Below, one piece after another: positions 2,649 through 51,209 of a stretch of 64,000 nucleotides of DNA. Where the stretch lies: IMG/VR virus record IMGVR_UViG_2579779105_000001; one strand, 5' to 3'. Source of the stretch: a virus (lineage: Duplodnaviria; Heunggongvirae; Uroviricota; Caudoviricetes). A program made the position numbers and the translations under genes. Each line of letters begins with the position of its first letter. The stretch's first letter is position 1. The notes under the pieces are model-generated. The model did not search any database. It was given only the letters and a program-made list of their open reading frames with translations, and was not told the origin of the DNA.

Positions 2649-3281
2649 TTGGCTACAGCGCAGAGCATTATCGAAACATTAAAGCGAGAGTGCTCACAGC
2701 TTGGTCACGATCTGAACCGTGCTTGTGGCATGGGACAAAGACCAGAGACATTTCCACTTATGTATGATGGGCGGGATGCCATTGCCTACATCCATGAGTA
2801 TCCGCACGGCCTGGTTGCGGAAACTGGGCAGCGTGGCGAAGCACTGCTGACGGCTAATTACCATCAACAAATCAGAACCAATCGCCTGTTAACGATGGAT
2901 GTGATCCCATCGGTGTGGGGAACGCCGCTTTACTATCGCCTGCCGGGCTTCGAAAAGGACTGGAATACCGACATAGACGAATGTCTCGCAGATAAAATTA
3001 TGGCGTACCTGGAGACGGATTTTCCGCGCTTATATCGCCGGATTATGGACTCTAAGGATGCGCCAATCGATGAATTAAAAATGCGTCCGGAGACGCTGGA
3101 GGCAATCAAGCAGACGGAGTTTGATACTGTATTCAGTGTGGCCTGCATTCCAAGCTGTTTCCATGAAAGCATTCCGTTCATGCAAGGAGATCGTCGTCAG
3201 GAAATCATTGACGCTTGCCGGGTATGGGCGAACGAATGGGATAAGAAGAATGGGGGTGTAGAAGATCTTTACGGGAAATAA
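2649..3281 (+). CDS. hypothetical protein
   Basis: 210-aa ORF with a TTG start in the track; the true start is uncertain (possible ATG near 2727). No recognisable motif. Confidence 0.35.
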   Translation: MATAQSIIETLKRECSQLGHDLNRACGMGQRPETFPLMYDGRDAIAYIHEYPHGLVAETGQRGEALLTANYHQQIRTNRLLTMDVIPSVWGTPLYYRLPGFEKDWNTDIDECLADKIMAYLETDFPRLYRRIMDSKDAPIDELKMRPETLEAIKQTEFDTVFSVACIPSCFHESIPFMQGDRRQEIIDACRVWANEWDKKNGGVEDLYGK

Positions 3282-3295
3282 TGTGTTAGAAATCT
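3281..3295 (-). promoter_or_regulatory. putative C1-type operator-like site (TTTCTAACA core)
   Basis: The reverse complement reads ATTTCTAACACAT, matching the motif that recurs at about ten intergenic positions in this window. Confidence 0.4.
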
Positions 3296-3350
3296 AAAAT
3301 TACGATTCGAATGTATTGATTGTGAAGGTAACTTAACATAGAATTTTCCT

Positions 3351-5220: not shown

Positions 5221-5484
5221 AGCGCAACGTTAAGAGTATTTGGCTAATTAAGCGAATGCCGGAAGCAGAACCGGATCACCAAATGCGTACAGGCGTCATC
5301 GCCGCCCAGCCAGCCAAGTGCTCTTACCATTGCGGTGAATGCGGCTAAGCGCACGCGGAACAGTTAAAACAATCCTTATTAGTGGTTAAATCAAACATCC
5401 CGGCGTTAATTGTTAACTGGTTAACGTCACCTGGAGGCACCAGGCACCGCAGCTTTTTTATTCGTTAAATAATGGAGTGAGAGG

Positions 5485-5703
5485 ATGCAGAACAATCCGA
5501 ACAAATGTCGAACGCTATGGGTGCGGCTATATATTTATGTCGTCCTCTGTTTGATTGTGTCACTGGTTCTGTATGTTTGGCTTTTGCCAAATATGATCTC
5601 ATCTGACAGCACAATACTTGTATTGTTGGGAGTCCTTCTCGCGCTCATTTACCCGGCTTTTGCAGTAGTCTTTTTTCGCAAAAAAATCCAGGAAATTGAT
5701 TAA
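5485..5703 (+). CDS. small hydrophobic membrane protein (two predicted TM helices)
   Basis: 72-aa ORF with hydrophobic segments; its stop overlaps the start of the next gene (ATTAATG). Confidence 0.45.
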   Translation: MQNNPNKCRTLWVRLYIYVVLCLIVSLVLYVWLLPNMISSDSTILVLLGVLLALIYPAFAVVFFRKKIQEID

Positions 5704-6530
5704 TGAAAAAAACGTTGATTAGTGCAGCGATTATTTTTGGTTCTTTATGTCTGACCGGATGCGACCGGGTAGAACCAGGCAATGTAGGGATCAAAGTAAA
5801 TAAGCTGGGGGATGATAAAGGTGTCGGCGAAGTAGTTGGCGTTGGTCGCTACTGGACAGGCTGGAACACAGAAGTTTATATCTTCCCGACCTTTAAGCAA
5901 ATGAAGACCTATGATGATCCGTTCAGCTTCCAAATGAGCGACGGGACAACAATTGGTTACCACATTGGTGTAGCTTACAAGGTTGATCCGGCAAAAGTCA
6001 CAACTGTATTTCAGACCTACCGCAAAGGCGTGGATGACATTACCGACACCGACCTGCGCCAGAAGATTGCCGACGCACTTAACCGACTGGCCAGCAAAAT
6101 GACCACCGACAAATTTATCGACGGTGGCAAGTCTGAACTGCTGGATGCAGCTCTTAAAGACATCCAGGAAGAAATGACGCCCATCGGTATTCAGGTAATG
6201 AGCCTCTCATATGTGGGCAAGCCGGAGTACCCGCCAACCGTTATCGACAGCATTAATGCCAAAGTCACGGCGAACCAGAAAACTCTGCAACGCGAGCAGG
6301 AAGTCAAGCAACGCGAAGCAGAAGCCAACATGCTGCGCGCAGAAGCTGCCGGACAGGCCGATGCCATTCGCACAAAAGCCCAGGCTGAAGCTGATGCCAT
6401 TCGTTTACGCGGTGAGGCTCTGCGCCAGAACCCCGGCGTTATGGAGTTGGAAGCGATCAACAAATGGAACGGAACGCTACCGCAGTATATGACCAGTAAT
6501 ACCGCTGTTCCGTTTGTTCCGGTGAAATAA
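5703..6530 (+). CDS. SPFH/band-7 (HflK/C-stomatin-like) domain lipoprotein
   Basis: Lipoprotein signal with LTGC lipobox; SPFH-like core and a C-terminal Ala/Glu/Arg-rich coiled coil (AEANMLRAEAAGQADAIRTKAQAEADAIRLRGEA). Confidence 0.6.
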   Translation: MKKTLISAAIIFGSLCLTGCDRVEPGNVGIKVNKLGDDKGVGEVVGVGRYWTGWNTEVYIFPTFKQMKTYDDPFSFQMSDGTTIGYHIGVAYKVDPAKVTTVFQTYRKGVDDITDTDLRQKIADALNRLASKMTTDKFIDGGKSELLDAALKDIQEEMTPIGIQVMSLSYVGKPEYPPTVIDSINAKVTANQKTLQREQEVKQREAEANMLRAEAAGQADAIRTKAQAEADAIRLRGEALRQNPGVMELEAINKWNGTLPQYMTSNTAVPFVPVK

Positions 6531-6543
6531 CCAAATAGAGAAC

Positions 6544-6675
6544 ATGATGGAATTTTGGACGTTTGCCGACAAGAACCCTTGGTGGACATTTTTATTTCTG
6601 CTGGTGGTTGCATATGGGGTCGAGCAAGCAGCAAAAGCCTTACGCGGTCCTGGCAAAAAGCGTAAGCGGAATTAA
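6544..6675 (+). CDS. small membrane protein (43 aa), below the ORF-track length cutoff
   Basis: Translation MMEFWTFADKNPWWTFLFLLVVAYGVEQAAKALRGPGKKRKRN: one TM segment and a basic tail, immediately downstream of the SPFH gene. Confidence 0.3.
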   Translation: MMEFWTFADKNPWWTFLFLLVVAYGVEQAAKALRGPGKKRKRN

Positions 6676-6684
6676 CAGTAATCT

Positions 6685-6760
6685 GGCCCTTTAGCTCAGT
6701 GGTTAGAGCTGGCGACTCATAATCGCACGGTCACCGGTTCAAGTCCGGTAGGGGCCACCA
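6685..6760 (+). tRNA. tRNA with CAT anticodon (Met, or Ile2 if lysidine-modified)
   Basis: Acceptor GGCCCTT/AGGGGCC with one G-U pair, D-arm TAGCTCAGTGGTTAGAGC, anticodon loop CTCATAA, T-loop GGTTCAAGTCC, CCA encoded. Confidence 0.8.
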
Positions 6761-7214
6761 TATTTGGTTGTAACACGGCGTATGGCACATGCGTCGTTAG
6801 CGGTCTGGTGACGTTAAAGGGGTTATCTTTTCCCCTAGCTCAGGCAACAAACCAGGTAGCCGGAATGTGCAAGCCCCGTTCATATCGTCGGACCGAGGAC
6901 TCACCATCCTGGCGATTCGGTGTGACAGCCGGAAGAGTACGGCGCACAACAGGAAAAGGCGTTTAATTAACGCGAGCGCCGTTTCCGTTGTGGTAATTGC
7001 GGCTATGCGCTCGTGGCGAAGCCATTTTCATTCATTGAGGTTCTGATAAGTGTCGTCGCCGGGCGTGGCTGACCTGGCAGGTGGAGGCACCACCGCCACA
7101 ACTCCTTTCAATTCATCATATAGCCGCTCAGGCTGTAACCCTTAATTAATACGAAGTTTCGACATCTCTATCGGTTTAACCGAGAGATGGTCGCGCGTGT
7201 AAAAAGGAGACGTT

Positions 7215-7790
7215 ATGTTAATGGCGAACGATAACGCATATGCAGAAGAAGATCTCATTTTGAGTGACTTCATAGGGAAGCAGGAACGCTGGACCCAAAA
7301 GCGAGAGGAACTTTACGCCTCATTAGTTCGCAAAGGCGTCAATATCGAAACCGCACAGAGCGGCGATATGACAGTGGTAAGCGTTGGATTGCACGGTGTA
7401 AGCGTGTCAGCAATCAATCATGAGCCATACGTTGCGTTATCCGAGTCAATGGTAAGGTTAGTTAAGTTCCTGAAGTACACAGAAGCGAATAATGTAATCA
7501 TTGGCAAAAAGAATATCCCTTTTTCCTCGGCTTTTTACTGGATGATGAAAGGGCTTGATGCCAGGCGGACATCATGGCCTAAAGGGAGCTATATATCGAT
7601 GTTCCGTGGCAGCATTGGCAGCAAAGAAAAGCTCTTCGAATTCTTGCCGGAAGAGGCATTCGATATTGTGGAAGGGTGCGATGTGATGGTGATGCCTCGC
7701 CTGGTAATGATGAATGGTGATTTACAGGCGCAGACAGACTGGTTTGCAACTGGTGTGGATATTATCGCGACTGACTGGGAGGCTTTCTGA
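7215..7790 (+). CDS. hypothetical phage protein with DUF2829-like C-terminal motif
   Basis: 191-aa ORF with an upstream AAAGGAGA RBS; the C-terminus (AFYWMMKGLDARRTSW ... ATDWEAF) resembles the motif in the 15441-16142 protein. Confidence 0.5.
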   Translation: MLMANDNAYAEEDLILSDFIGKQERWTQKREELYASLVRKGVNIETAQSGDMTVVSVGLHGVSVSAINHEPYVALSESMVRLVKFLKYTEANNVIIGKKNIPFSSAFYWMMKGLDARRTSWPKGSYISMFRGSIGSKEKLFEFLPEEAFDIVEGCDVMVMPRLVMMNGDLQAQTDWFATGVDIIATDWEAF

Positions 7791-8182
7791 TGTACGGGAC
7801 TACCAAATTAAGCACTCAACAGGCCACCAATATGGAGTGGTCTATCGCTAACTGTAAGATCGTGTCATGCAATGCCACGCGTACTGATGTGGGCCATAAA
7901 AGCACTATAACAGGCTATCTGGTAATGACCACCAGGGGGATGAGGGTTAGATTTCGCTGGAAAGCAGAGCAAGTAACGCCATTCAGAGAGCCATCAATGC
8001 CGCTGCAGGTTGAGCAGGATTATCTATGTTTACCAGAAATAGATGGCGGAATGCTGGTGGAGTCTGATGGTAGTAAGGCTGATTTTGAAGCCAATTTGAA
8101 GCTGGCACAGGCCGTAATCAATAGTTATCGCGGACAGTGGATCGCAAAAGTGAAACATGTTGTTCGTTTGTCTCGCTGGTAG
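7790..8182 (+). CDS. hypothetical protein
   Basis: 130-aa ORF; its start overlaps the stop of the upstream gene (translational coupling). Confidence 0.45.
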   Translation: MYGTTKLSTQQATNMEWSIANCKIVSCNATRTDVGHKSTITGYLVMTTRGMRVRFRWKAEQVTPFREPSMPLQVEQDYLCLPEIDGGMLVESDGSKADFEANLKLAQAVINSYRGQWIAKVKHVVRLSRW

Positions 8183-8200
8183 CATTAGATATTTAGTATT

Positions 8201-8215
8201 AATTTTCTAATACAA
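8201..8215 (+). promoter_or_regulatory. variant operator-like site (TTTTCTAATACA)
   Basis: Shares the TTTTCTAA core; lies upstream of the lpa-like gene. Confidence 0.3.
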
Positions 8216-8290
8216 TCATCTTTTTGCCAGTCTATACAGTTTTAACATTCTCATTATCATCCCCTCGGTCATTTCCTGCCCGGGGGATTA

Positions 8291-8683
8291 ATGGAACAAA
8301 TCAGCAGCGCAGAAATTGCGGATATCATGATTAGGGCTGACTGCTATCTGACAGTCACTGAAATTACCATTCTCGCCAAAGAAAAATACCCTCATCTCCA
8401 TGTTTCACGGGTAAGTGTAACTAACATCATTCGTCATTTTGTTCGTTCAAGCAGGGCAATCTGTGAGCTTGATGATCGCGTTTACCCACGAAAATACTGG
8501 TTGCATGGCCTGAACGGATATCAGTTCAAGGTGCGTGGGCGAACCCCTGAATACGGCAGTTTACTGGTTAAAAACTGTAGCAGGAAATCAGTCGAACAGG
8601 CGCGAAAAGAGCAACGAGAGCTGGTGGACATGGCGAATAAGCTGTGGAATGCCGCCGTTAAAAAGCGTGGTGTTGCTTTATGA
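8291..8683 (+). CDS. putative late promoter activator (Lpa-like), by position upstream of pacA
   Basis: 130-aa ORF overlapping the pacA start by 4 nt. P1 has lpa directly upstream of pacA; no sequence comparison was possible. Confidence 0.35.
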   Translation: MEQISSAEIADIMIRADCYLTVTEITILAKEKYPHLHVSRVSVTNIIRHFVRSSRAICELDDRVYPRKYWLHGLNGYQFKVRGRTPEYGSLLVKNCSRKSVEQARKEQRELVDMANKLWNAAVKKRGVAL

Positions 8684-10044
8684 GTCTGGTTAATTGGGAG
8701 GAGCACCGCGCCCGCTTTATAGCGTTGCGTGAAGAAAAAGGGATCACTGTAAAGGAATACTGTGAGGAGCATGGCCTTAGCTTCAATACAGCCAGAAAGC
8801 ATCTCAATATGAAAAAAAATGAGGTGCGGTCGCAGGTAAAGACAACAAAAAAAAGCACCAAATCACCTGAAAAAAAACGGGCAGGAAGAGCAACAAAAAA
8901 GCAGGAAGAGGGTGCAGGAAAAACAAAATTTACAGAAATTGACAATTCGCAGGGCGCAGGTTCTTTCCGAAGTATGCCGAGAAAGAAAACTTCGGATCAT
9001 GAAAATAATTCAAATAATAACAATGAGATAAAAGAATCCGTCAGGAGATCATTACGCGAAAAAATGGCGAAAATGATCCCCGAAGAAGATAAAAGCGCCC
9101 CAAAAATTGAGGGATCTTCTGCAATGATCCCTGACGGTGCTGTGCAGCGTGCCACATTGCCAACTACGAATGTAGCTCGCGATATGATGAAGAACGGCGC
9201 AGAAGAACACCTGCGGTTAGCAATTCAAATGGCGCAAGAGCGCGCACTTCAGTATCAAAGCATTGTTGATCAGGAGGCCGAACGTCTACAGGCGGAAATA
9301 GACACCCTGGGCGATAAAGAGCCAGAAGGAATGCACCCTGGGCAGCGCCTTCTCGGTCTAATCAGTGACGCGGCCTACTACATGAATGATTTTATCAGTA
9401 GGTTGGCAGCTATTTATCAGTCCGAACAAAAGCTGCGACAGGGGGATGAAAAGCTTCGTCAGAGCGCTCGCCAGCAAGCATTCAAAGAGGCTGAGGCCAG
9501 AGAAAAACTCGAATTAGCACGCCTACAGGCCGAACAGCGTGGCAAAGAGATTGAATATCGCATTGGCGCTGACGCACGCGCAGCCAGAGTTATCGCCGCC
9601 GCTATACGTATGCGTGAGCGCGAGGAACTGGATGATATCGGTGTTGCTGAATACATCGAGCGCCAGGGTGTCAGCGTCCCGGCTATCCTCGCGGCGCGCG
9701 CGGCGAAAGCTATCACTCTTCTCGAACCACCTGTTTCTGACGTCAATGATGTTGATGATGAACAGCTGGACAAAGAGGCAAGGGAGTTTGCAACGCTTCA
9801 GGCTAACCATCCGCAATGGCTGGCAGAGCGCCGGGCGGATGTGGCAACCATTGTTGAAGAATTGGGGTGCGGAGATTACGACCGCAATGGCGAGCGTAAA
9901 GCTGGAGAATTCGAGGCCAACGACGAAGAGCTGGATATTGACCCTTCGGCAACGGCTGAAATTTACGGTGATTATGATGCATCTGATGCAGGGTATGACG
10001 CCGGAGATGATGATATCGCGATAGAACCGCCGGAGGATGATTAA
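8680..10044 (+). CDS. pacA: terminase small subunit / pac-site recognition protein (PacA-like)
   Basis: 454-aa ORF with N-terminal HTH-like region, basic/acidic low-complexity linker and acidic C-terminus; lies directly upstream of the large terminase. Confidence 0.55.
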   Translation: MSLVNWEEHRARFIALREEKGITVKEYCEEHGLSFNTARKHLNMKKNEVRSQVKTTKKSTKSPEKKRAGRATKKQEEGAGKTKFTEIDNSQGAGSFRSMPRKKTSDHENNSNNNNEIKESVRRSLREKMAKMIPEEDKSAPKIEGSSAMIPDGAVQRATLPTTNVARDMMKNGAEEHLRLAIQMAQERALQYQSIVDQEAERLQAEIDTLGDKEPEGMHPGQRLLGLISDAAYYMNDFISRLAAIYQSEQKLRQGDEKLRQSARQQAFKEAEAREKLELARLQAEQRGKEIEYRIGADARAARVIAAAIRMREREELDDIGVAEYIERQGVSVPAILAARAAKAITLLEPPVSDVNDVDDEQLDKEAREFATLQANHPQWLAERRADVATIVEELGCGDYDRNGERKAGEFEANDEELDIDPSATAEIYGDYDASDAGYDAGDDDIAIEPPEDD

Positions 10045-11552
10045 TGGCTGGCAGGCGCAAGGTTAAATGCGTCACCAGAGATCCACGCTGGCGCGATATG
10101 GTAATCAAATACCGCTACAACTTTACCCAGGCTGTTGTCGATATTTTTGGGATGTTCCCCTCCCACCAGCAGCAGCAGATCATTCAGTCCGTACAGGAAA
10201 CGGGGAGTAGGACTACCGTCACGTCCGGACACGGAACGGGGAAGTCGTCCCTTACCGCGATGTTGCTGTTGATTTTTATGATCCTGTTCCCCGATGCCCG
10301 TGTCATCATTGTTGCTAACAAGATAGGCCAGGTAAAAACAGGCGTATTCAAATACGTTAAACAGTATTGGGCGAATGCAGTTAAGCGTCATGGGTGGTTG
10401 CAGACCTATTTTGTCCTCTCTGACACCATGTTTTATGAGCGCTCCCGTAAGGGGATTTGGGAAGTTCTCTGCAAAGGTTATCGACTCGGCAACGAAGAAG
10501 CGCTGGCGGGGGAACACGCGGCACATTTGCTTCTAATTCTGGATGAAGCATCTGGTATATCTGATAAGGCGATCGGCGTAATGACCGGTGCTCTTACTGA
10601 AGAAGATAACCGGATGTTGATGCTATCCCAGCCAACAAGGCCAAGTGGTTATTTCTACGATTCGCACCATTCTCGAGCAAAAACCCCAGACAACCCGAAA
10701 GGGATCTGGACAGCAATTGTTCTTAACTCGGAAGAATCACCGTTCGTCACACCACAATTCATCAAGGAGAAGCTTCTGGAATATGGCGGGCGCGATTCTA
10801 TTGAGTACATGGTCAAGGTGCTTGGTCAGTTCCCACGAGAAATTAACGGCTATTTGCTTGGTCGTGATGAATGCGATCGCGCTGCTCGCCGCAAGGTGTT
10901 GTTGGAGAAAAACTGGGGATGGGTGGCAACGGCTGACGTTGGTAATGGGCGAGATAAGTCGGTCCTCAACATCTGCAAGGTATCAGGTCACAGGGATAAG
11001 CGGCGCGTTGTTAACTTTAAGGTAATGGAGATGCCTGGCACTATGGACCCATTGGCCTTTGCTGACTTCATATATAACGAATGTACGCCGGAAAAATACC
11101 CGAATATAACAATCGCGGTTGATGCTGATGGTTTTGGTTCTGATACGTGTGCGCAGTTGGTGCGTCGTGGTGCGAACCCGGTACGTATTCGGTGGGGAAA
11201 ACCCATGTTTGCGAACAAAGACAGGGAGCGATTTGTTAATCAGCGAGCCTACGCAAATATTATGGCGCGTGATGCCATAAAGTCAGGGCGTATGCGGATA
11301 GACAGTGACTCTAAAACGGCAGAGCAAGCGTCAAAAATCCCCTTTTTACTGAATGAAGAAGGGAAAATGGCGATGATGCGCAAAGAGCACATGCGGCAAA
11401 AGCTAAACATCAAATCGCCTGACCGATGGGATACCTACTGCTTCACTATGCTGGTGGACTATGTGCCTGCTAATGAAGATATTGGTGCCGAAATGGCAAC
11501 TTTCCGAGATCAGGTTCTGGCGGATATCGAAATGCCGGATCTGGATATATAA
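10044..11552 (+). CDS. pacB: terminase large subunit (PacB-like)
   Basis: 502-aa ORF with Walker A-like GHGTGKSS and LILDEAS Walker B-like motifs; start overlaps the pacA stop. Confidence 0.6.
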   Translation: MAGRRKVKCVTRDPRWRDMVIKYRYNFTQAVVDIFGMFPSHQQQQIIQSVQETGSRTTVTSGHGTGKSSLTAMLLLIFMILFPDARVIIVANKIGQVKTGVFKYVKQYWANAVKRHGWLQTYFVLSDTMFYERSRKGIWEVLCKGYRLGNEEALAGEHAAHLLLILDEASGISDKAIGVMTGALTEEDNRMLMLSQPTRPSGYFYDSHHSRAKTPDNPKGIWTAIVLNSEESPFVTPQFIKEKLLEYGGRDSIEYMVKVLGQFPREINGYLLGRDECDRAARRKVLLEKNWGWVATADVGNGRDKSVLNICKVSGHRDKRRVVNFKVMEMPGTMDPLAFADFIYNECTPEKYPNITIAVDADGFGSDTCAQLVRRGANPVRIRWGKPMFANKDRERFVNQRAYANIMARDAIKSGRMRIDSDSKTAEQASKIPFLLNEEGKMAMMRKEHMRQKLNIKSPDRWDTYCFTMLVDYVPANEDIGAEMATFRDQVLADIEMPDLDI

Positions 11553-11555
11553 AAG

Positions 11556-11572
11556 CCCCGCAGTGCGGGGCC
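11556..11572 (-). terminator. hairpin GCCCCGCAGTGCGGGGC between convergent pacB and the 11581-12618 gene
   Basis: On the minus strand the hairpin is followed by TTTTAT. Confidence 0.4.
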
Positions 11573-11580
11573 GGTGGTGA

Positions 11581-12618
11581 TTACCAGAGCTTTGCGGCGC
11601 GCTGCGTTTGGGGGAATGTGTATCCGTAACGTTCTTCGATTGCTTTGCCGTATTTTTTACGCGCTTCATTCAGTTTGATGCCGGTCAGGTCGTCTCCAGA
11701 GGCCATCATTACGTCTAACAATTCCAGATCCATTTTATCCAGCCTTGCCATTGCTTCACGCGATGTACGAATCTTACGTTCAATGATATGGCGAATAGCC
11801 GGATCGGCATCCTCCAGCATCTTAGCTGATTTCTGCTTAAGGTTTTCGTTGCGGATATCGATGTTCCTTAAGATATACGACTTCGCAACGTAGCTTGGCT
11901 GATGTTTTTCCAGGTCACGAACACGATATAAGCTAAAGTCGCCGAGAAGGCTGCAAGGCACCGATTCGACGCCAGAATAAATTGTAATGCTACGGCGTTC
12001 ACCAACATTATTGACAACGGGGATCGTTGTCTTCGGTAGTTTTGCGAAAACGAATGCGCCATGTGCGCCAACTCTAAAGCGAGAAAGGGCATTGCTGCCT
12101 TCGATGTTTGTTGTCAGCACAACATCTGTATATGCCTCTTTACGCGCCCGGTAGACCTCGCCTTCAGGCTCAGCTTCAAAGAAGCGCTGTTCTTCTTCAA
12201 GAGCACCTACGATTTGAGAAAAAACCCTATTTTTCAGGCTTTTCTTTATGATTTTGTCGTATTTTTTGAGCAATTGTTCACGTGTAAATGTACGTGTTGT
12301 TGTAGCGCTTTGCACAACAACATGCGTGCTTTGATTGGTGTCCTCAATGATGAATGGGATCGGAGAATATACAGACTCAACAATGTTAGACGCTTTGCCG
12401 TCAGCATTACGGCACAAGTCAACAAAGGCTTTCCATTCTGCGAGGCACTTTTCAGCTTCTTCTAGTACATTTTGGTCGTGTGTTAGTGCAACGTGGCGGA
12501 ATTCCTCGCCAGCATAACTGGTATCATGGAAAACAGAGTTTGCGACCACCAGCTCTTTCCACCGTTCAGCGGTTTGCAGGAACCGTTTGTACTCTTTCTC
12601 GATCGACTTCTTACTCAT
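11581..12618 (-). CDS. hypothetical protein; candidate C1-like repressor by position and operator context
   Basis: 345-aa ORF convergent with pacB; an operator-like motif sits just upstream at 12637-12652. No sequence-level confirmation. Confidence 0.3.
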   Translation of the reverse strand: MSKKSIEKEYKRFLQTAERWKELVVANSVFHDTSYAGEEFRHVALTHDQNVLEEAEKCLAEWKAFVDLCRNADGKASNIVESVYSPIPFIIEDTNQSTHVVVQSATTTRTFTREQLLKKYDKIIKKSLKNRVFSQIVGALEEEQRFFEAEPEGEVYRARKEAYTDVVLTTNIEGSNALSRFRVGAHGAFVFAKLPKTTIPVVNNVGERRSITIYSGVESVPCSLLGDFSLYRVRDLEKHQPSYVAKSYILRNIDIRNENLKQKSAKMLEDADPAIRHIIERKIRTSREAMARLDKMDLELLDVMMASGDDLTGIKLNEARKKYGKAIEERYGYTFPQTQRAAKLW

Positions 12619-12636
12619 TATTCCTACTCGATTTAG

Positions 12637-12652
12637 TTTTCTAACATAAAAT
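12637..12652 (+). promoter_or_regulatory. operator-like site TTTTCTAACATAAAAT
   Basis: Motif instance 19 bp upstream of the start of the 11581-12618 gene. Confidence 0.45.
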
Positions 12653-12830
12653 CCCTATGACAAATCTATGTCGAATAACAGAGTGAGTAAAGGATCGAAC
12701 TATGATTTTTTTGTCATCAACTTTAGAAAACCAACCGTTGAAACCACACTTCGCAAATTAAAGACCATGAAGGCAACGTGTTACTGTCCATCATCAATCT
12801 ATGATGGATTACAAAAAAAATCGGCATTTT

Positions 12831-12864
12831 ATAACTTTAAATAATGGGGATTATTTAAAGTTAG
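12831..12864. other. lox-like recombination site (13-bp inverted arms, 8-bp spacer)
   Basis: ATAACTTTAAATA-ATGGGGAT-TATTTAAAGTTAG; arms match 12/13. Same architecture as loxP (ATAACTTCGTATA-ATGTATGC-TATACGAAGTTAT), sharing the outer ATAACTT and the spacer ATG start; 150 bp upstream of the Cre-like gene. Confidence 0.65.
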
Positions 12865-13015
12865 GCTATAATCATGTGTAGATGAACAGTATTGACATCA
12901 CTGAAAATACGTGCCTCGAATCAAAGGCTTGTATTTTGAAAATTAACTTATAGCTACCCTGTCATTTTTATATTTTTCGCGTAGCGTCATATGTATATAG
13001 AGGCGAAATAGTTTC

Positions 13016-14044
13016 ATGGGAGAATTAATTATCTCTGGCAGTTCCGGTGGTTTTCTGCGCAACATTGGCAAAGAGTACCAGGAAGCCGCAGAAAACTTTA
13101 TGCGGTTCATGAATGACCAGGGGGCTTATGCGCCGAATACTCTGCGCGACCTCCGGTTGGTGTTTCATTCCTGGGCGCGCTGGTGTCACGCTCGCCAGCT
13201 CGCCTGGTTCCCGATCTCACCAGAAATGGCCCGCGAGTATTTTCTTCAGCTGCATGATGCCGATCTGGCTTCGACCACCATTGATAAGCACTACGCCATG
13301 CTGAACATGCTGCTTTCGCATTGTGGCCTTCCGCCACTTTCGGATGATAAAAGTGTTTCTCTGGCTATGCGGCGCATCCGGCGCGAAGCGGCAACTGAAA
13401 AAGGCGAACGAACAGGCCAGGCTATACCGCTGCGGTGGGACGATCTGAAACTGCTCGACGTCCTGTTGTCCAGGTCAGAACGGCTGGTGGACCTGCGCAA
13501 CCGGGCTTTTCTCTTTGTTGCATACAATACGCTGATGCGTATGTCGGAAATCTCGCGTATTCGTGTAGGAGATCTGGACCAAACAGGTGACACTGTCACG
13601 CTACATATTTCACACACGAAGACAATAACGACCGCCGCCGGGCTTGATAAGGTGCTTTCCCGTCGCACTACCGCTGTGCTGAATGACTGGCTGGATGTTT
13701 CCGGGCTTCGCGAACATCGTGACGCAGTGCTGTTCCCGCCGATACACCGTAGCAATAAGGCCAGGATCACGACAACGCCCCTTACTGCACCTGCAATGGA
13801 GAAAATATTCAGCGACGCCTGGGTGTTGCTGAATAAAAGAGATGCTACGCCAAACAAAGGGAGATACCGGACGTGGACCGGGCATAGTGCACGCGTCGGG
13901 GCCGCTATTGATATGGCTGAAAAGCAGGTGTCTATGGTGGAGATCATGCAGGAAGGAACCTGGAAGAAACCGGAAACACTTATGCGGTATCTGCGCCGTG
14001 GCGGTGTGTCTGTGGGGGCTAATAGCCGCCTGATGGATTCGTAA
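13016..14044 (+). CDS. Cre-like tyrosine site-specific recombinase (divergent from P1 Cre)
   Basis: 342 aa. Conserved blocks shared with Cre: WFPxxPEDVRDYLL-like, SVSLAMRRIRREA, LAFxxIAYNTLLRIAEIARIRVxDI, WSGHSARVGAAxDMA, and the C-terminal Tyr region (MRYLRR). Confidence 0.85.
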   Translation: MGELIISGSSGGFLRNIGKEYQEAAENFMRFMNDQGAYAPNTLRDLRLVFHSWARWCHARQLAWFPISPEMAREYFLQLHDADLASTTIDKHYAMLNMLLSHCGLPPLSDDKSVSLAMRRIRREAATEKGERTGQAIPLRWDDLKLLDVLLSRSERLVDLRNRAFLFVAYNTLMRMSEISRIRVGDLDQTGDTVTLHISHTKTITTAAGLDKVLSRRTTAVLNDWLDVSGLREHRDAVLFPPIHRSNKARITTTPLTAPAMEKIFSDAWVLLNKRDATPNKGRYRTWTGHSARVGAAIDMAEKQVSMVEIMQEGTWKKPETLMRYLRRGGVSVGANSRLMDS

Positions 14045-14047
14045 ATT

Positions 14048-14062
14048 AAATTTCTAACACAT
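14048..14062 (+). promoter_or_regulatory. operator-like site AAATTTCTAACACAT
   Basis: Motif instance just after the cre-like stop and upstream of the 14118 ORF. Confidence 0.4.
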
Positions 14063-14117
14063 CTTTTTAGATTAACGCCTTTGATGTAAAGTACCCTCGC
14101 CTATTTAGGAGGGTGCT

Positions 14118-25023: not shown

Positions 25024-25064
25024 AATGTATACCGACTCTGTTTTGTTCCGAGCGGTAAAATAAT

Positions 25065-25098
25065 ATGTTAGAAAACTAAAATCAACGTTCTAACGTAA
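25065..25098. promoter_or_regulatory. two operator-like sites (ATGTTAGAAAACT and GTTCTAACGTA)
   Basis: Motif instances between the phosphatase gene and the 24028-25023 gene. Confidence 0.4.
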
Positions 25099-25121
25099 TT
25101 TTGAGTGCGTAAATGATTTGA

Positions 25122-29772: not shown

Positions 29773-29967
29773 CAAAGTTTCCCCAGGAACGTTACGCAAA
29801 AGTTGATGAGAGCAAAGAGTTCAATGCCCAGCTCAAACAACGCCAGGACAGTGAAAAACAGGACATATAGCAACCCAATTTCTGTATCGGATTGCTGGTG
29901 GATTGCACTAATTGCGACAAGCATCATGACCTCCTGATATAGCGTCTGAAAAAAGTATCTTCATTTT

Positions 29968-29997
29968 GTGTTAGAAAATCAATTTTGATTTTCTAAC
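29968..29997. promoter_or_regulatory. palindromic double operator (TGTTAGAAAATCAA / TTGATTTTCTAACA)
   Basis: Perfect 14-bp inverted repeat of the recurring motif, in the divergent promoter region between the 29161-29772 gene and the ref-like gene. Confidence 0.55.
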
Positions 29998-30043
29998 ATG
30001 TTTGATCAACCATAGCGGCTATGTAGACAAACCGGGTATTTCT

Positions 30044-30619
30044 ATGAAGCAAAGCTATTGGGAGAAACAGACACAAAAAGCCCTGCAAAAACTGGCTGAT
30101 CCGAAATGGCGGGAGGAACAAAGGGCAAAGCGTCTTCAGCAAGCTCAACGCCAGCAGCAGCGTGCGCGAGAAAAAGCCGCATCGCCTGAATATCGGCAAA
30201 AGAAAATTGAAAAAGCGAAGCAATATGAACAGCGAAGAAAAGAGAAGGCCGCTTCTGCTCCTGTCAAAAAAACTCGCGCGTCACGCGGCCTGAAAGGCAG
30301 AACACTCACAGCAGATGAGCGCCGGATACAAACTGCCATCGGTGCTCTCCCCTGCATTGCCTGCCATATGCACGGACAGCATAGCCCTGTGGTATCCCTG
30401 CACCACATCTTCGGAAGAACAGCAGAGAACGCGCATAAATACGTCCTCCCTTTGTGTAAATGGCACCATCAACACGCAGCGCCAGCAGAGATCCGCGAGC
30501 AATACCCCTGGTTGGTTCCTGTTCATGCTGATGGAAAAATAGGCGGTAAAGCAGATTTCAGGCGGCACAATGCTGATGAAATGACGTTGTATCAGATGGC
30601 GATTGAATTGACGAATTAG
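30044..30619 (+). CDS. ref: Ref-like HNH endonuclease (recombination enhancement function)
   Basis: Highly basic N-terminal region plus C-terminal HNH-like Cys/His cluster (CIACHMHG ... HHIFG ... CKWHHQH). In P1, ref is C1-controlled, consistent with the upstream operator palindrome. Confidence 0.55.
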   Translation: MKQSYWEKQTQKALQKLADPKWREEQRAKRLQQAQRQQQRAREKAASPEYRQKKIEKAKQYEQRRKEKAASAPVKKTRASRGLKGRTLTADERRIQTAIGALPCIACHMHGQHSPVVSLHHIFGRTAENAHKYVLPLCKWHHQHAAPAEIREQYPWLVPVHADGKIGGKADFRRHNADEMTLYQMAIELTN

Positions 30620-30634
30620 TTTTCTAACATTTTA
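30618..30634 (+). promoter_or_regulatory. operator-like site AGTTTTCTAACATTTTA
   Basis: Motif instance overlapping the ref stop codon. Confidence 0.4.
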
Positions 30635-30950
30635 AGTTGAATTATAAATTTCTCCGATGTACATTCACTACCGATTGGCACACCGGTCAACTTTTTGAGA
30701 CAAACTGTATAGTTTTTCGTATTATTGCCGCCGCCATACCTATGGCGGTGCAATATAGGTGGCTGAAAAGCCCCCGTTGACTCACGGTGTTCCAGCCTTT
30801 ATTGCGCCGCCACCAGACCGTGGAACAGTCGATGGCGGCTCCGAAAGCAAGGAGTCACTACACTATGAACAGCTACTGTCTTTTCCCGTCACTCGTTGTC
30901 CGCCACTCACGCGATAATCTGCATTCTTTACTCGCGCTGGGGGTGTCAAA

Positions 30951-31118: not shown

Positions 31119-31505
31119 AATACTGACTTTTGCGCCCTGGCATTATCGTGGGGTATATTTCTACGGCACCTTAGAAAAACGGGTGCCGGGATTGGAACCT
31201 CACGCGGTAGCTCCTTAACTTAGTCAAAGGAGGCTGCCAATATCGCTACTATCCCCACCCCAACTCATTCTGAATTTATCTGGCGTTTCTATTCCTGCCA
31301 AAAACACCTGTATATCTGCGTCATGGCTGCAACCGAAGCAGAAGCTCGTTCATACCTTCCCCTGGCGGAACGGGGCGTAATTGGTGATAAACAGATACTG
31401 GGAAACAGTGGAACTACATGAGGCGGGAGTAATTCGTGACCTGATGGAGAATTCCGTTCCCCGCCGCTATCGTGCAGGGAACGGCATCTCCGTGGTTAAA
31501 GGTGT

Positions 31506-31898
31506 TTAAAGCTCACCTGCGCGCTGTTTTTCAAGCACAGATTTAACATTTGGCGCTTTCCCTTTAAAAGAATGGAAAGTGCCACATTTTTCTGTTTTAA
31601 CCTCGCGCAGAGCTTCGCCGTCGGCGTTCTGCCATTGATGGGATAATGTCATATCACCGCGAGAAGGAACATCCAGCGAGTACAGCGTGTAAGTTCCCCC
31701 CATCTCCGCATACTCCTGGAACACATAGCTCATTACGTCAGATTCAGTTTTTCGGTGTGCGTTATCAACCTTATTCCCATTCAGAAATATGGCATCTGGA
31801 TAGATTTTTATATCAAACCGACCGCACTTAACTTGTAAATCTCCGGCGCTCGCGATCAAAGGGAAAGACGCCAGTAAAGCAATAGCCAATCTTTTCAA
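31506..31898 (-). CDS. secreted protein with signal peptide
   Basis: N-terminal MKRLAIALLASFPLIASA signal-peptide-like sequence; 130 aa. Confidence 0.5.
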   Translation of the reverse strand: MKRLAIALLASFPLIASAGDLQVKCGRFDIKIYPDAIFLNGNKVDNAHRKTESDVMSYVFQEYAEMGGTYTLYSLDVPSRGDMTLSHQWQNADGEALREVKTEKCGTFHSFKGKAPNVKSVLEKQRAGEL

Positions 31899-31918
31899 TT
31901 CTGCCTCCGCTGCGTAAC

Positions 31919-32542
31919 TTATTGCCCGTATTTTTTACACCATTGCTCTGCCATTTGTTTGGCTAAAGGCCCGGCTACTGCACTGTATTCTGCTGTTTTA
32001 CTTTGCACACATGAAGCAGATGGTTTTTTATTTCGCTGCTCGGTTAGTTTGCGCTCATAAGCCATCATGCTATCGAACCCGGCAATATCACTTTGGCGAA
32101 GCATTCCCTTTTTAACCAAAAATTGCTGCCCCTCTGGCACCAACGCAAGCATAAAAAGAGGTTGCAATAACTCACCTAATCCTTGCTGGCGATACACTTC
32201 GAATTGCTGCCATCCCTGACTTAATCTGGAAAGAGTATCTTTGGTTGAATAACCTGTTTTTGTTATAGCTTTGTCCGTCAGATATGCTGTATATGCAAAA
32301 ACGCAAAAGTCAGTTTTACCAATAAACTGAGTTCCAACAGGCCGTAATGGAATGCCCTCCCTCTTGCAAAAGTCCATAATGGCCGCTTGTGAATGAACTC
32401 CACCAGCGTTATTCATAACCTGCTGCCCTGCCCTGAATTGTGCAGGTAACGCAGTTGCATTGGCAGTATTAGCAGATACGCATCCCAACATAGCCGCGAG
32501 CGCGGCCCCTAAAGCCCTTAACTTCACTACACCATCCTTCAT
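31919..32542 (-). CDS. secreted or periplasmic protein with signal peptide
   Basis: Signal-like N-terminus ...ALGAALAAMLGCVSANTANA; 207 aa. Confidence 0.5.
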   Translation of the reverse strand: MKDGVVKLRALGAALAAMLGCVSANTANATALPAQFRAGQQVMNNAGGVHSQAAIMDFCKREGIPLRPVGTQFIGKTDFCVFAYTAYLTDKAITKTGYSTKDTLSRLSQGWQQFEVYRQQGLGELLQPLFMLALVPEGQQFLVKKGMLRQSDIAGFDSMMAYERKLTEQRNKKPSASCVQSKTAEYSAVAGPLAKQMAEQWCKKYGQ

Positions 32543-32758
32543 GCAAACAAAATGAAGTTTTATGTTATAAAAACAATTAACTACATAAACATGATTTAGG
32601 CCAAATTTCGGTTAAAAAATAAAATCCACCAAAAGTGGTTGACACTATTTTGGAAATCACAAACTGCACATAATCCATCGCGCTAACGGCTCCCGTTGAA
32701 GGTTCTTTTGACGATTAACTTTCAGCCGAAGCGCGGTAGGGAGTCATAACGCCAAAGC

Positions 32759-40413: not shown

Positions 40414-40447
40414 AAAATGCACCCATTTGTGTTAGATAATTAACGCG

Positions 40448-40464
40448 TATTTTCTAACATAAAT
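40448..40464 (+). promoter_or_regulatory. operator-like site TATTTTCTAACATAAAT
   Basis: Motif instance 9 bp upstream of hrdC. Confidence 0.45.
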
Positions 40465-43698: not shown

Positions 43699-45360
43699 TT
43701 AACCTAACTTCGCCCAGGTATCACGCAGCCCAACGGTGCGGTTAAATACCGGTTTTTCCGCCGTAGAATGGCGGCTGTCGAGGCAGAAATAACCTTCACG
43801 CTCAAACTGGAATGCTTTACCAGCTACCGCTTCTTTCAGCGACGGTTCAGCAAAGCCCTGTTTGATCACCAGCGATTCCGGGTTAATCACCGACAGAAAA
43901 TCATCCGCAGCACCTGGGTTCGGTACACTGAACAGACGGTCGTACAGGCGAATTTCAACCGGCAGCGCATGGGCCGCGCTTACCCAGTGGATAACGCCTT
44001 TCACTTTACGACCATCTGCCGGATCTTTGCTTAAAGTATCGGCATCGTAGGTACAGAAGATGGTGGTGATATTGCCTTCGGCATCTTTCTCCACGCGTTC
44101 AGCCTTAATGACGTAAGCATTACGCAGACGCACTTCTTTACCCAGCACCAGACGTTTGTACTGCTTGTTAGCTTCTTCGCGGAAATCGGCGCGGTCGATC
44201 CAAATCTCACCGCTAAACGGCACCTGACGGCTACCCATTTCCGGTTTGTTCGGATGGTTCGGCATGGTGACCATTTCGCCTTCGCCCTGGTAGTTTTCGA
44301 TAACCAGTTTCACCGGATCGATAACCGCCATTGCGCGCGGCGCATTTTCGTTGAGATCTTCACGGATGCAGGATTCCAGCGACGCCATCTCAATGGTGTT
44401 GTCCTGCTTGGTCACGCCGATGCGTTTGCAGAACTCACGAATAGAAGCCGCAGTGTAACCACGACGACGCAGACCGGAAATGGTCGGCATACGCGGGTCA
44501 TCCCAGCCTTCAACGTGCTTGTCGGTCACCAGCAGGTTCAGCTTACGCTTGGACATCACAGTGTATTCCAGATTCAGGCGCGAGAATTCGTACTGGCGCG
44601 GGTGAACAGGAATGGTGATGTTGTCCAGCACCCAGTCGTACAGGCGACGGTTGTCCTGGAACTCAAGCGTACACAGAGAGTGCGTAATACCTTCCAGCGC
44701 ATCGCTGATGCAGTGGGTGAAGTCGTACATCGGGTAGATGCACCACTTGTTGCCAGTCTGGTGGTGTTCAGCAAACTTAATGCGGTACAGCACCGGATCG
44801 CGCATCACGATAAACGGCGACGCCATGTCGATTTTCGCACGCAGGCAGGCTTTACCTTCTTCAAAACCACCGGCACGCATTTTTTCGAACAGCGCCAGGT
44901 TCTCTTCAACGCTGCGATCGCGGTACGGGCTGTTTTTACCCGGCTGCGTCAGGGTGCCGCGGTATTCGCGGATCTGTTCCGGCGTCAGTTCGTCAACATA
45001 CGCCAGGCCTTTGTTGATCAGTTCAACAGCATAGGCGTGGAGCTGATCAAAATAATCGGAGGAGTAACGGACGTTACCAGACCAGTGAAAACCTAACCAT
45101 TCAACGTCGTTTTTAATCGACTCGACGTACTCGATATCTTCTTTTACCGGGTTAGTGTCGTCGAAACGCAGGTTGCACTGGCCTTTATAGTCCTGGGCGA
45201 TCCCGAAGTTCAGGCAGATAGATTTCGCATGACCAATATGCAGATAGCCATTCGGTTCCGGCGGGAAACGGGTATGTACTGTGGTGTGCTTACCACTTGC
45301 CAGATCTTCATCGATGATCTGACGAATAAAGTTAGTCGGGCGGGCTTCTGCCTCACTCAT
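43699..45360 (-). CDS. glnS: glutaminyl-tRNA synthetase (full length, host-like)
   Basis: 553 aa, essentially co-linear with E. coli GlnS from [20 protein letters not shown] through the C-terminal anticodon-binding domain; HIGH motif (HIGH) and VMSKR present. Confidence 0.95.
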
Positions 45361-50658: not shown

Positions 50659-51051
50659 TCATTGTCGCCATGCATTTTTTAACTCAGGAATATCTGCCAT
50701 TTCAATTAACTTGCGAAGTCCAGCACTGACTTTCCCATTGCCAACCATAGCAAGCCAATCTCTTACAGCTTTCGGCATGTAGAGCGTTGCAGTTACCGGC
50801 TCTTCAACCCTGGCAGGACATCCGCATACAGGCCATTTAATTGATTCCATAACTTCGGATGCCGGGGTGAGGGTGGGGACATTGAGTATATCTCTACCAG
50901 AAAACTGGATAACGATCCGTTCAGCGAGCGAGAGTATCTCACTTTCGGCAAGAATTGATGCCAACTGCGCCTCAACAAGAAAGCGACTTGTTGTGTTCAG
51001 AGAGTGGCTCTTAGCGCCATTTTTATATGAAACAAAGATTCGATACGCCAT
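50659..51051 (-). CDS. hypothetical protein
   Basis: Start set at MAYRIF; an operator-like motif sits immediately upstream. Confidence 0.4.
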   Translation of the reverse strand: MAYRIFVSYKNGAKSHSLNTTSRFLVEAQLASILAESEILSLAERIVIQFSGRDILNVPTLTPASEVMESIKWPVCGCPARVEEPVTATLYMPKAVRDWLAMVGNGKVSAGLRKLIEMADIPELKNAWRQ

Positions 51052-51064: not shown

Positions 51065-51078
51065 TGTGTTAGAAAATT
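51065..51078 (-). promoter_or_regulatory. operator-like site (reverse complement AATTTTCTAACACA)
   Basis: Motif instance in the promoter region of the 50659-51051 gene. Confidence 0.4.
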
Positions 51079-51209
51079 AAAATTAAAACACATAACAACA
51101 TGACTGTTAATAGATTTTATTTTACTAAAACTATTGACTAAATCACAAAGTAGGTATTGTTAGCCCGTCAAAAGAACCTTCACGCCGCGCCCGAATTTAG
51201 GGCTTAACC

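What the first reader, a model, noticed from the sequence alone, without database searches (positions are those of the whole stretch)
29968..29997. Recurring TTTTCTAACA(T/C) motif defines a putative repressor regulon
The motif occurs at 3281-3295, 8201-8215 (variant), 12637-12652, 14048-14062, 25065-25077, 25088-25098, 29968-29997 (perfect palindromic pair), 30618-30634, 40448-40464 and 51065-51078, almost always in promoter-proximal intergenic DNA. These sit next to genes that P1 C1 is known to control (ref, lpa) and to the C1-position gene. It resembles but differs from the P1 operator consensus ATTGCTCTAATAAATTT, suggesting a distinct immunity specificity.
Basis: partly seen in the sequence, partly recalled or inferred. 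Interest (0 to 1): 0.55.

Follow-up and report, generated by a model that had tools for sequence, protein, structure and literature searches.

The report
Operator set of a D6-type phage repressor
A 19-base DNA word repeated at about ten promoter regions of this D6-like (P1-related) plasmid prophage is very probably the binding site of its own C1-type master repressor. This is an expected P1-style immunity regulon with a different DNA specificity, and the repressor's predicted fold unexpectedly resembles the replication terminator protein Tus.

Summary
TTTTCTAACAY occurs 7 times exactly (0.14 expected) and 15 times with one mismatch or fewer (2.9 expected). It extends to an asymmetric 19-bp consensus, AwATTArTTTTCTAACAyA. 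Eleven sites score 20-31 bits and the next best scores 13.4. Ten or eleven of them lie in the 14.6% of the window that is non-coding.

The window is a phage D6-like plasmid prophage. The gene at 11581-12618(-) is a distant full-length homologue of P1 C1 (20% identity, same PHROG, Pfam PF27008).

The sites sit where P1 has C1 operators: c1 itself, lpa, ref, a c4-like RNA, hrdC-dmt and the tRNA cluster. They are kept at the same positions in D6, a complete E. coli plasmid and about 60 metagenomic loci. In the most diverged of these they stand out as conserved islands in diverged DNA. P1 has none of these sites, and the window has no P1-type operator.

29969-29998 is a perfect 14+2+14 palindrome made of two head-to-head sites. 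This fixed geometry appears in 36 distinct pairs.

Binding and repression are inferred, not shown. The second candidate repressor (50659-51051) has no support.

The C1 model matches only Tus-Ter structures in the PDB. Verdict: a new member of a known kind, of moderate interest.

The parts
11581..12618 (-). c1-type repressor gene (345 aa), orthologue of D6 gene 1
   Evidence: 20% identity over 242 aa to P1 C1, E 5e-8. Same PHROG 1678 over its full length. NCBIfam phage_rep_C1 gives 25 bits against a cut-off of 500. Its homologues carry precomputed Pfam PF27008 Phage_P7_repressor_C1. D6 annotates the orthologue as 'prophage repressor, similar to P1 C1'.
12630..12650 (+). Operator upstream of c1 (29.3 bits), ending 12 bp from the c1 start codon, between the predicted c1 promoter and the ribosome-binding site
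   Evidence: TTATGTTAGAAAA is an invariant island in an alignment of relatives with C1 48-100% identical. It is present at -32 from the c1 start in nearly all loci scanned.
12663..12691 (-). Predicted c1 promoter, TTTACT-N17-TAGATT
   Evidence: Lenient hexamer scan. Both hexamers are conserved in all seven diverged relatives. Inferred, no transcript data.
12721..12730 (-). Partial second site TTTTCTAAAG about 30 bp upstream of the c1 -35 hexamer
   Evidence: Invariant block TTT(T/C)CTAA in alignment A3. It is a full TTTTTCTAACA in the 52%-identity relative L006.
29965..29985 (-). Left half of the divalent operator between the DUF4406 operon (-) and ref (+), 28.9 bits
   Evidence: Invariant in every ref locus of D6-type relatives, although the flanking sequence falls into very different families.
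29982..30002 (+). Right half of the divalent operator, nearest ref, 26.1 bits. Together with the left half it forms the 14+2+14 palindrome 29969-29998
   Evidence: Strong in the window clade and in L073. Degenerate in D6 and its closest relatives (TTGAATATCTAAC; 8 bits in D6, 11-20 bits in the others).
30613..30633 (+). Operator overlapping the ref stop codon (30619), upstream of a c4-like antisense RNA and an icd remnant, 25.9 bits
   Evidence: present at +566/+569 from the ref start in all but one (truncated) D6-type ref locus; weaker, 16 bits at +590, in L073. C4 RNA model RF01695 hits 30738-30817 at 40.2 bits, E 5e-6, below the gathering score of 45. An icd N-terminal fragment lies at 31263-31361.
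8196..8216 (+). Operator upstream of lpa (8291-8683), variant core TTTTCTAATAC, 27.2 bits. A degenerate partner lies at 8179-8199(-), 9.6 bits
   Evidence: (BPP1_LPA domain). TTTCTAA is invariant, and the partner is strong in some relatives.
3280..3300 (-). Operator just after the pmgS remnant, upstream of the tRNA-Asn/Thr/Ser...tRNA(CAT) cluster, 28.3 bits. A weak second site lies at 3436-3456(-), 11.5 bits here and 16.9 in D6
14043..14063 (+). Operator at the stop codon of the cre/dre-type recombinase gene, upstream of the orf117-dut-isaA-like operon, 26.4 bits
   Evidence: (at about -1442 from c1 in every locus that reaches that far (below 14 bits in L006)), 102.
25062..25082 (-). Operator between the ppp gene and the DUF968 (pdcB-like) gene, 30.0 bits. 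A weak partner lies at 25079-25099(+), 9.0 bits here and 14.1 in D6
40426..40446 (-). Left half of the divalent operator upstream of hrdC(rdgC)-dcm-dmt, 25.4 bits
   Evidence: (RdgC domain).
40443..40463 (+). Right half of the divalent operator upstream of hrdC (start codon 40473), 20.1 bits
51063..51083 (-). Operator upstream of the D6 orf52-like gene (start codon 51051), 31.3 bits. Weak neighbours lie at 51074-51094(+) and 51114-51134(+)
   Evidence: The gene product has no known domain.
32559..32626 (-). Two weak sites (13.4 and 11.9 bits) between the simB-like gene and mat. They are present in D6 and the closest relatives
   Evidence: L042; the first also in L061. Status uncertain.

Best explanation
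The motif is the operator of the element's C1-type master repressor, the product of 11581-12618(-). As in P1, a single protein recognises an asymmetric site of about 19 bp. These sites are scattered over the plasmid prophage at the promoters or leaders of early and lytic genes. The targets are lpa (the late-gene activator), ref, the DUF4406 operon, the c4-like/icd immunity module, hrdC-dmt, the tRNA cluster, and a few accessory operons. In complete relatives repL is also a target. The repressor's own gene carries a site too, which implies autoregulation. Occupied sites would keep the prophage quiescent and give immunity to superinfection by phages of the same specificity, but not by P1 or P7. 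At three places in the window two sites lie head to head with a fixed 17-nt offset (core centres 21 bp, two helical turns, apart). At 29969-29998 this pair is a perfect palindrome filling the centre of the 116-bp gap between divergent genes, so two bound repressors would cover both divergent promoters. Shown here: the motif, its statistics, its positions, its conservation and the repressor's homology. Inferred: binding by C1, repression, promoter positions and stoichiometry.
For: Enrichment and a bimodal score distribution. Intergenic placement, p = 4e-8. The window is D6-like. The C1 homology is full-length. Site positions match annotated P1 C1 operators: Olpa, Oref, Oc4, Odmt, the Oban leader with tRNAs, and Oc1 in the window, plus OrepL in D6 and pCR-0543_3. 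P1's C1 biology is described in PMC8546580: 22 dispersed asymmetric 17-bp operators that control repL and lpa. The sites sit at the same offsets from c1 in the relatives scanned, though most of those are close relatives, so this alone is weak evidence. The stronger evidence is that they stand out as conserved islands in diverged intergenic DNA upstream of c1, lpa and ref. Specificity tracks repressor type: P1 has no site above 13 bits, the window has no P1 operator within 3 mismatches, and a P1-like ref locus (L071) carries TTTGCTCTAATAAATTT instead. The pair geometry is fixed: 36 distinct pairs, all in (-,+) order with offset 17. The site at c1 lies between a conserved promoter and the start codon.
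Against: There are no binding or expression data. A stringent sigma-70 scan finds no canonical promoter over the 29969-29998 palindrome; only 8-of-12 hexamer matches are present, so promoter overlap is argued from position alone. C1 is only 20% identical to P1 C1 and scores far below the NCBIfam equivalog cut-off. No Lxc or Coi homologue is present in the window, so the circuit differs from P1's. The similarity between the D6-type and P1 operator sequences is not itself significant.
Confidence: 0.85

Rival explanations
1. The motif is bound by a different regulator encoded by the element (for example the orf52-like product of 50659-51051, an Ant/Rha-type protein or the HigA antitoxin) or by a host protein, and C1 recognises something else.
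For: Nothing links C1 to the motif physically. One site lies directly upstream of 50659-51051, which could indicate autoregulation.
Against: The orf52-like protein has no DNA-binding domain in Pfam or NCBIfam and belongs to an unknown-function PHROG. The only classical HTH protein found among the ORFs scanned is HigA, within a HigB/HigA pair, and no strong site lies next to it. The strongest conserved site sits 12 bp from the c1 start codon in relatives whose C1 is 48-100% identical. The target list reproduces the P1 C1 regulon. No other repeated motif that could serve as a C1 operator was seen.
Confidence: 0.07
2. The motif is mainly a promoter element of early genes, such as a shared -10-like TAACAT with an upstream T-tract, or a binding site for an activator, rather than a repressor operator.
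For: TAACAT/TAACAC within the core resembles a -10 hexamer. In most cases the motif points toward the downstream gene. In the paired sites the partner supplies a TAGAAA 16 bp upstream.
Against: The conserved block is 19 bp long, far more than a -10 element. At c1 the site is in the opposite orientation to the gene and lies downstream of a separately conserved promoter. P1 operators likewise embed promoter-like hexamers and are proven repressor sites (annotation). The two roles are not exclusive.
Confidence: 0.06
3. The recurrence is a compositional or chance effect of AT-rich intergenic DNA.
For: The motif is AT-rich and intergenic DNA is AT-rich.
Against: Seven exact copies against 0.14 expected; no shuffle exceeds 1. 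Scores are bimodal. P1, which has similar composition, has no strong site. Conservation is position-specific across diverged relatives.
Confidence: 0.01

Closest known systems
Phage P1/P7 C1 repressor and its dispersed operators (ImmC; consensus ATTGCTCTAATAAATTT)
   Same: The repressor is homologous (PF27008, PHROG 1678). The operators are asymmetric sites of about 17-19 bp, 11 in this 64-kb window and 12-16 per complete element, against 22 in P1. The same genes are targeted (c1, lpa, ref, c4/icd, dmt operon, tRNA/ban-type leader, repL). Monovalent and divalent operators are mixed. An operator overlaps the ref stop codon in both.
   Different: The operator sequence differs: no P1-type site within 3 mismatches here, and no D6-type site in P1. 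The repressors are only 20% identical. The D6-type C1 carries a C-terminal helical extension of about 75-100 aa that P1 C1 lacks. No Lxc, Coi or c8 homologue is in the window, and none is annotated in D6. Divalent operators are head to head with cores 21 bp apart, whereas P1 Obanab is tail to tail with a 6-bp overlap (11-bp offset).
Escherichia phage D6 (MF356679 / NC_050154) and D6-like plasmid prophages
   Same: The same motif sits at orthologous positions, with 12 sites of 25 bits or more in D6. C1 orthologues in related elements are 70-100% identical to the window's. D6-type c1 lies on plasmids in 99 of 5,426 complete E. coli genomes and never on a chromosome.
   Different: In D6 the ref-proximal half-site is degenerate (8 bits), while here it is part of a perfect palindrome. 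The window lacks the D6 segment 9827-13623 and the D6 icd/ant copy downstream of ref. The deposited D6 record annotates no operators. I could not read the D6 genome paper (Gilcrease and Casjens 2018) to see whether it lists them.
Tus-Ter replication terminator complex of E. coli
   Different: There is no detectable sequence similarity. TM-scores are only 0.33-0.38. Operator and Ter sequences are not significantly alike. The function here is transcriptional repression, not fork arrest.
Lambda-type CI repressors
   Same: Both are the master repressor of a temperate phage, are autoregulated, and define the immunity specificity.
   Different: Lambda CI is a dimeric HTH protein that binds symmetric operators clustered at two loci. 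Here the sites are asymmetric, scattered over ten or more loci, and the protein has no HTH domain.

Membership tests
P1-type C1 repressor/operator immunity system (ImmC) | The repressor is a homologue of P1 C1 | tested here: met
   BLASTP gives 20% identity over 242 aa, E 5e-8. Both proteins match PHROG 1678 end to end. Its homologues carry precomputed Pfam PF27008. The local Pfam copy gave no hit for the window protein. The gene sits in the same position next to the lox/rox site, the recombinase gene and pacB.
P1-type C1 repressor/operator immunity system (ImmC) | Many asymmetric operators of about 17 bp dispersed over the genome rather than clustered | tested here: met
   Eleven strong sites at ten loci in 64 kb. 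Complete elements have 12-13 strong and 2-4 intermediate sites. The 19-bp consensus has no internal dyad.
P1-type C1 repressor/operator immunity system (ImmC) | Operators located at c1, lpa, ref, c4/icd/ant, repL, dmt and ban-type operons | tested here: met
   Compared with the protein_bind features of NC_005856 and the site maps. The repL and first c4/icd/ant sites lie outside the window but are present in D6 and pCR-0543_3.
P1-type C1 repressor/operator immunity system (ImmC) | Operator sequence ATTGCTCTAATAAATTT (P1/P7 immunity specificity) | tested here: not met
   No match within 3 mismatches in the window. The D6-type matrix finds nothing above 13 bits in P1. The system therefore works in the same way but belongs to a different immunity group.
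P1-type C1 repressor/operator immunity system (ImmC) | Accessory factors Coi (inactivator) and Lxc (co-repressor) | tested here: not met
   tblastn with P1 Lxc, Coi and C8 against the window finds nothing significant. None is annotated in D6. About 28 kb of the element lies outside the window.
P1-type C1 repressor/operator immunity system (ImmC) | C1 binds the sites and represses the adjacent promoters | not testable with these tools
   Requires EMSA or footprinting, reporter assays or ChIP.
NCBIfam NF041318 phage_rep_C1 (equivalog of P1 C1) | Score at or above the curated cut-off of 500 bits | tested here: not met
   25.3 bits, E 9.6e-6. It is a homologue, not an equivalog.
Tus (replication terminus site-binding protein) fold | Three-dimensional similarity to Tus over most of the chain | tested here: inconclusive
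   [not shown]

The most novel reading that the evidence does not exclude
C1-family phage repressors (P1, P7, D6) are not HTH proteins but Tus-fold proteins that clamp an asymmetric site as monomers. That would explain why their operators lack symmetry. The D6 lineage would have added a C-terminal helical domain that lets two clamps pair head to head on 21-bp-spaced sites that double as bidirectional promoters. If the Tus analogy goes further, bound operators could also act as orientation-dependent barriers to replication or transcription on the plasmid prophage.
Probability: 0.35. Interest if true: 0.7.

Novelty: new member of a known kind. Interest (0 to 1): 0.4.

Why it matters
D6-like phage-plasmids are carried by about 2% of completely sequenced E. 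coli (99 of 5,426 genomes, always on plasmids) and also occur in Salmonella. In RefSeq their repressor is mostly annotated as 'hypothetical protein' and their operators are not annotated at all.

Knowing the operator gives three things. It provides a molecular basis for D6-type versus P1-type immunity. It gives a direct list of the genes silenced in the prophage state. It also supplies an orthogonal repressor/operator pair for P1-based tools.

Comparing the P1 operator with the D6-type operator, alongside the two repressors, offers a natural experiment on how this unusual repressor family reads DNA. P1 C1 is a monomer by my recollection, not checked here. The possible Tus-like fold, if confirmed, would connect a classic phage immunity protein to a fold so far seen in the PDB search here only in replication terminators.

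Tried and rejected
1. Literature. The D6 genome paper (Gilcrease and Casjens 2018, PMC5800970) and the P1 genome paper (PMC523184) are not held. Full-text searches for the motif and for D6 operators found nothing relevant. Prior description therefore cannot be excluded.

2. GTDB species genomes. The first alignment (A1) was too diverse to search with. The scan with A2 found no D6-type C1.

3. A 31%-identity C1 homologue (L008, 4 kb) carries no D6-type site. The contig is too short to define its own operator.

4. Sequence resemblance of the operator to TerB was rejected as chance level (p 0.07 for one site, 0.46 for the consensus). Gapped similarity between the D6-type and P1 operator consensus is also not significant (p 0.83).

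5. A profile of 37 C1-family proteins against PDB sequences finds no Tus. BFVD gives no significant hit. The afdb50 library was unavailable.

6. The stringent promoter scan finds no canonical sigma-70 promoter over the palindrome.

7. A P1 late-promoter box search found only two loose matches and was not pursued.

8. The candidate repressor 50659-51051 was rejected for lack of any DNA-binding signature.

9. No Lxc, Coi, C8, Ant1 or KilA homologue is present in the window.

Full report
**1. The observation**

The 11-mer TTTTCTAACAY occurs 7 times exactly in the 64-kb window. Dinucleotide-preserving shuffles give 0.14 on average and never more than 1. With one mismatch allowed there are 15 matches against 2.9 expected.

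The copy at 25088-25098 is degenerate.

Across 91 distinct strong sites from this window and its relatives the consensus is A-w-A-T-T-A-r-T-T-T-T-C-T-A-A-C-A-y-A, 19 bp with no internal dyad.

A 21-bp weight matrix gives a bimodal score distribution in the window. Eleven sites score 20-31 bits, none scores 14-20, and the next best scores 13.4. At 12 bits or more there are 13 hits against 1.2 on average in Markov-1 simulations. The matrix was built from the window's own sites, so those scores are circular. The exact-word test and the scans of other genomes are not.

Ten of the 11 strong sites lie in the 14.6% of the window outside long ORFs (binomial 4e-8). The eleventh is also intergenic if the start codon annotated in D6 (51051) is used.

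The pair at 29968-29997 is a true palindrome: arms 29969-29982 and 29985-29998, 14 nt, 100% complementary, 2 nt apart.

**2. What the window is**

- The window is a phage D6-like plasmid prophage, a distant relative of P1. It aligns at 81-98% identity over 53 kb with Escherichia phage D6 in reverse orientation.
- Hundreds of roughly 90-kb E. coli and Salmonella plasmids match part of the tested 6-kb region; 45 cover most of it.
- Window 2543-13000 is 100% identical to an IMG/VR contig.
- D6-type c1 is on plasmids in 99 of 5,426 complete E. coli genomes and never on a chromosome.

**3. The repressor**

- ORF 11581-12618(-), 345 aa, is the orthologue of D6 gene 1, annotated 'prophage repressor, similar to P1 C1'.
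- It lies where P1 has c1, between the lox-like rox site and recombinase gene on one side and pacB on the other.
- It is 20% identical to P1 C1 over 242 collinear residues, pairwise E 5e-8.
- Both proteins match PHROG 1678 end to end.
- Its homologues carry Pfam PF27008, Phage_P7_repressor_C1.
- Against NCBI's equivalog model for P1 C1 it scores 25 bits, with a cut-off of 500. It is therefore a homologue, not the same protein.
- The family is small: 62 representatives at 50% clustering among 1.84 billion proteins.
- D6-type members carry a conserved C-terminal extension (about residues 245-345) that P1 C1 lacks.

**4. Where the sites are**

The RefSeq record of P1 annotates its C1 operators, which allows a direct comparison.

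| Window site | Location | P1 counterpart |
|---|---|---|
| 12630-12650 | 12 bp upstream of the c1 start codon | Oc1 |
| 8196-8216 | upstream of lpa | Olpa |
| 29965-30002 | between ref and the divergent DUF4406 operon | Oref |
| 30613-30633 | overlaps the ref stop codon and precedes a c4-like RNA (RF01695, 40.2 bits, E 5e-6, below gathering) and an icd fragment | Omat by position, Oc4 by function |
| 40426-40463 | upstream of hrdC(rdgC)-dcm-dmt | Odmt |
| 3280-3300 (plus weak 3436) | head of the leader of a + strand tRNA-Asn/Thr/Ser...tRNA(CAT) cluster | resembles the P1 Oban leader, which carries tRNAs |
| 14043, 25062, 51063 | precede accessory operons | none assigned |

In complete elements (D6 and E. 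coli plasmid pCR-0543_3) further strong sites precede repL, the first c4/icd/ant module and pmgS. The target list therefore reproduces the P1 C1 regulon described in PMC8546580.

**5. Conservation and specificity**

In 32 IMG/VR loci with C1 70-100% identical, plus Logan contigs at 79%, 52% and 48%, the sites recur at the same offsets from c1 (-32, about -1442, about +4400, +8-9 kb, +9.5-10.6 kb).

- Upstream of c1, TTATGTTAGAAAA is the longest invariant block. A promoter, TTTACT-N17-TAGATT, and a second partial site are also conserved.
- Upstream of lpa, TTTCTAA is invariant.
- Upstream of ref, the left half-site is unchanged across clades whose flanking DNA is otherwise very different. The right half-site is strong in some clades and degenerate in D6.

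Specificity follows repressor type. P1 has no site above 13 bits. The window has no P1 operator within 3 mismatches. A P1-like ref locus carries TTTGCTCTAATAAATTT instead.

In the 52%-identity relative the core is retained but the 5' flank differs (CTAT rather than TTAR). This hints at finer sub-specificities.

**6. Architecture**

Paired sites always have the same geometry: (-,+) order with a 17-nt offset, in 36 distinct sequences. The cores are thus 21 bp, two helical turns, apart and head to head. P1's divalent Obanab is tail to tail with a 6-bp overlap.

In the window the pairs are at ref (both halves strong), at hrdC (both strong), and between ppp and the DUF968 gene (one strong, one weak). 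A fourth, degenerate pair lies upstream of lpa.

The ref palindrome sits in the centre of a 116-bp divergent intergenic region. Only weak hexamer matches overlap it: TAGAAA-16-TAACAT rightward, with the mirror image leftward. The stringent scan finds no canonical promoter there. Promoter occlusion is therefore an inference from position.

At c1 the site lies between the conserved -10 hexamer and the ribosome-binding site, which suggests negative autoregulation.

**7. How the protein might read an asymmetric site**

An AlphaFold2 model of C1 (10-sequence alignment, pLDDT 81.3, pTM 0.51) was compared with the PDB.

- Foldseek's only significant matches are the four E. coli Tus-Ter entries: E 5e-7 to 1e-5, probability 1.0, about 305 aligned columns, TM 0.33-0.38.
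- Tus binds an asymmetric Ter site very tightly (PMC4499146). From my own knowledge, not checked here, Tus and P1 C1 both bind as monomers.
- The family-invariant R157 and R159 lie on a long predicted beta-strand.
- There is no support from sequence: a family profile does not find Tus. BFVD gave no confirming hit. No paper in the library links C1 with Tus.
- The operator and Ter sequences are not significantly alike.

I treat the Tus-like fold as a lead, with a probability of about 0.35-0.5.

**8. Rivals**

- **A different regulator.** The only HTH protein found among the ORFs scanned is a HigA antitoxin.
- **A promoter or activator element.** This is not excluded, and it is compatible with an operator role. 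However, the orientation and position at c1 argue against a purely promoter function.
- **Chance.** Excluded.

**9. Novelty**

This is the expected kind of system, a C1-type dispersed operator regulon, with a different recognition sequence. It has some new features: no Lxc or Coi, a C-terminal extension on the repressor, and head-to-head divalent operators.

The deposited D6 record annotates rox and cix sites but no operators. I could not read the D6 genome paper, so prior description cannot be ruled out.

I rate it a new member of a known kind, with interest 0.4. The Tus-fold lead is the part that could raise that.

Noticed in passing
[not shown]
   Followed up: partly
window 12832-12863: The lox-like rox site TAACTTTAAATAAT-GGGG-ATTATTTAAAGTTA has spacer GGGG/CCCC. 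D6 and the relatives checked, down to 52% C1 identity, have TGGC/GCCA. The variant is shared only with the near-identical IMG/VR contig L010. It could be a heterospecific recombination site for the adjacent Cre/Dre-type recombinase (13016-14044).
   Followed up: partly
window 1-2556 and 2649-3281 (junction near 2540): An internal darB fragment (85% identical to D6) abuts the C-terminal part of pmgS. The D6 segment 9827-13623 (pmgS N-terminus, pmgR, pmgM, ulx, end of darB) is missing. The otherwise identical contig L010 does not share this junction, so this copy may be a deleted, possibly defective prophage or an assembly join.
   Followed up: partly
window 30738-30817 (+), 31263-31361 (+), 31362-32484: A C4 antisense-RNA-like element (40.2 bits, just under Rfam's gathering score) is followed by only the first third or so of icd (P1 Icd residues 8-40). 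After that comes 1.1 kb unrelated to D6, with two ORFs of unknown function, in place of the antirepressor gene. This second ImmI-like module therefore looks decayed or replaced.
   Followed up: partly
window about 8259-8287: A hairpin CCCCTCGG...CCGGGGG lies immediately before the lpa start codon. It is conserved in relatives with compensatory changes (CCCTCCGG/CCGGAGGG). It may control translation of the late-gene activator.
   Followed up: no
window 7215-7790 (+): An ORF with a Thoeris anti-defence Tad2-like domain (E 1.7e-9) lies just upstream of the lpa operator. It is annotated as a Tad2 family protein in plasmid pCR-0543_3.
   Followed up: no
window 4516-6760 (+) and 43699-45360 (-): The element carries four tRNA genes (Asn, Thr, Ser, and a CAT-anticodon Met/Ile2 type) and a full-length glutaminyl-tRNA synthetase gene, as D6 does. 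The D6 GenBank record lists the tRNAs on the strand opposite to the one ARAGORN and Rfam find here.
   Followed up: no
L006 (Logan SRR32291423 contig, C1 52% identical): The operator core TTTTCTAACA is kept at the orthologous places, but the 5' flank is CTAT/TAT instead of TTAR. This suggests sub-specificities within the D6-type C1 clade. The weak window site at 3436-3456 has this alternative flank.
   Followed up: partly
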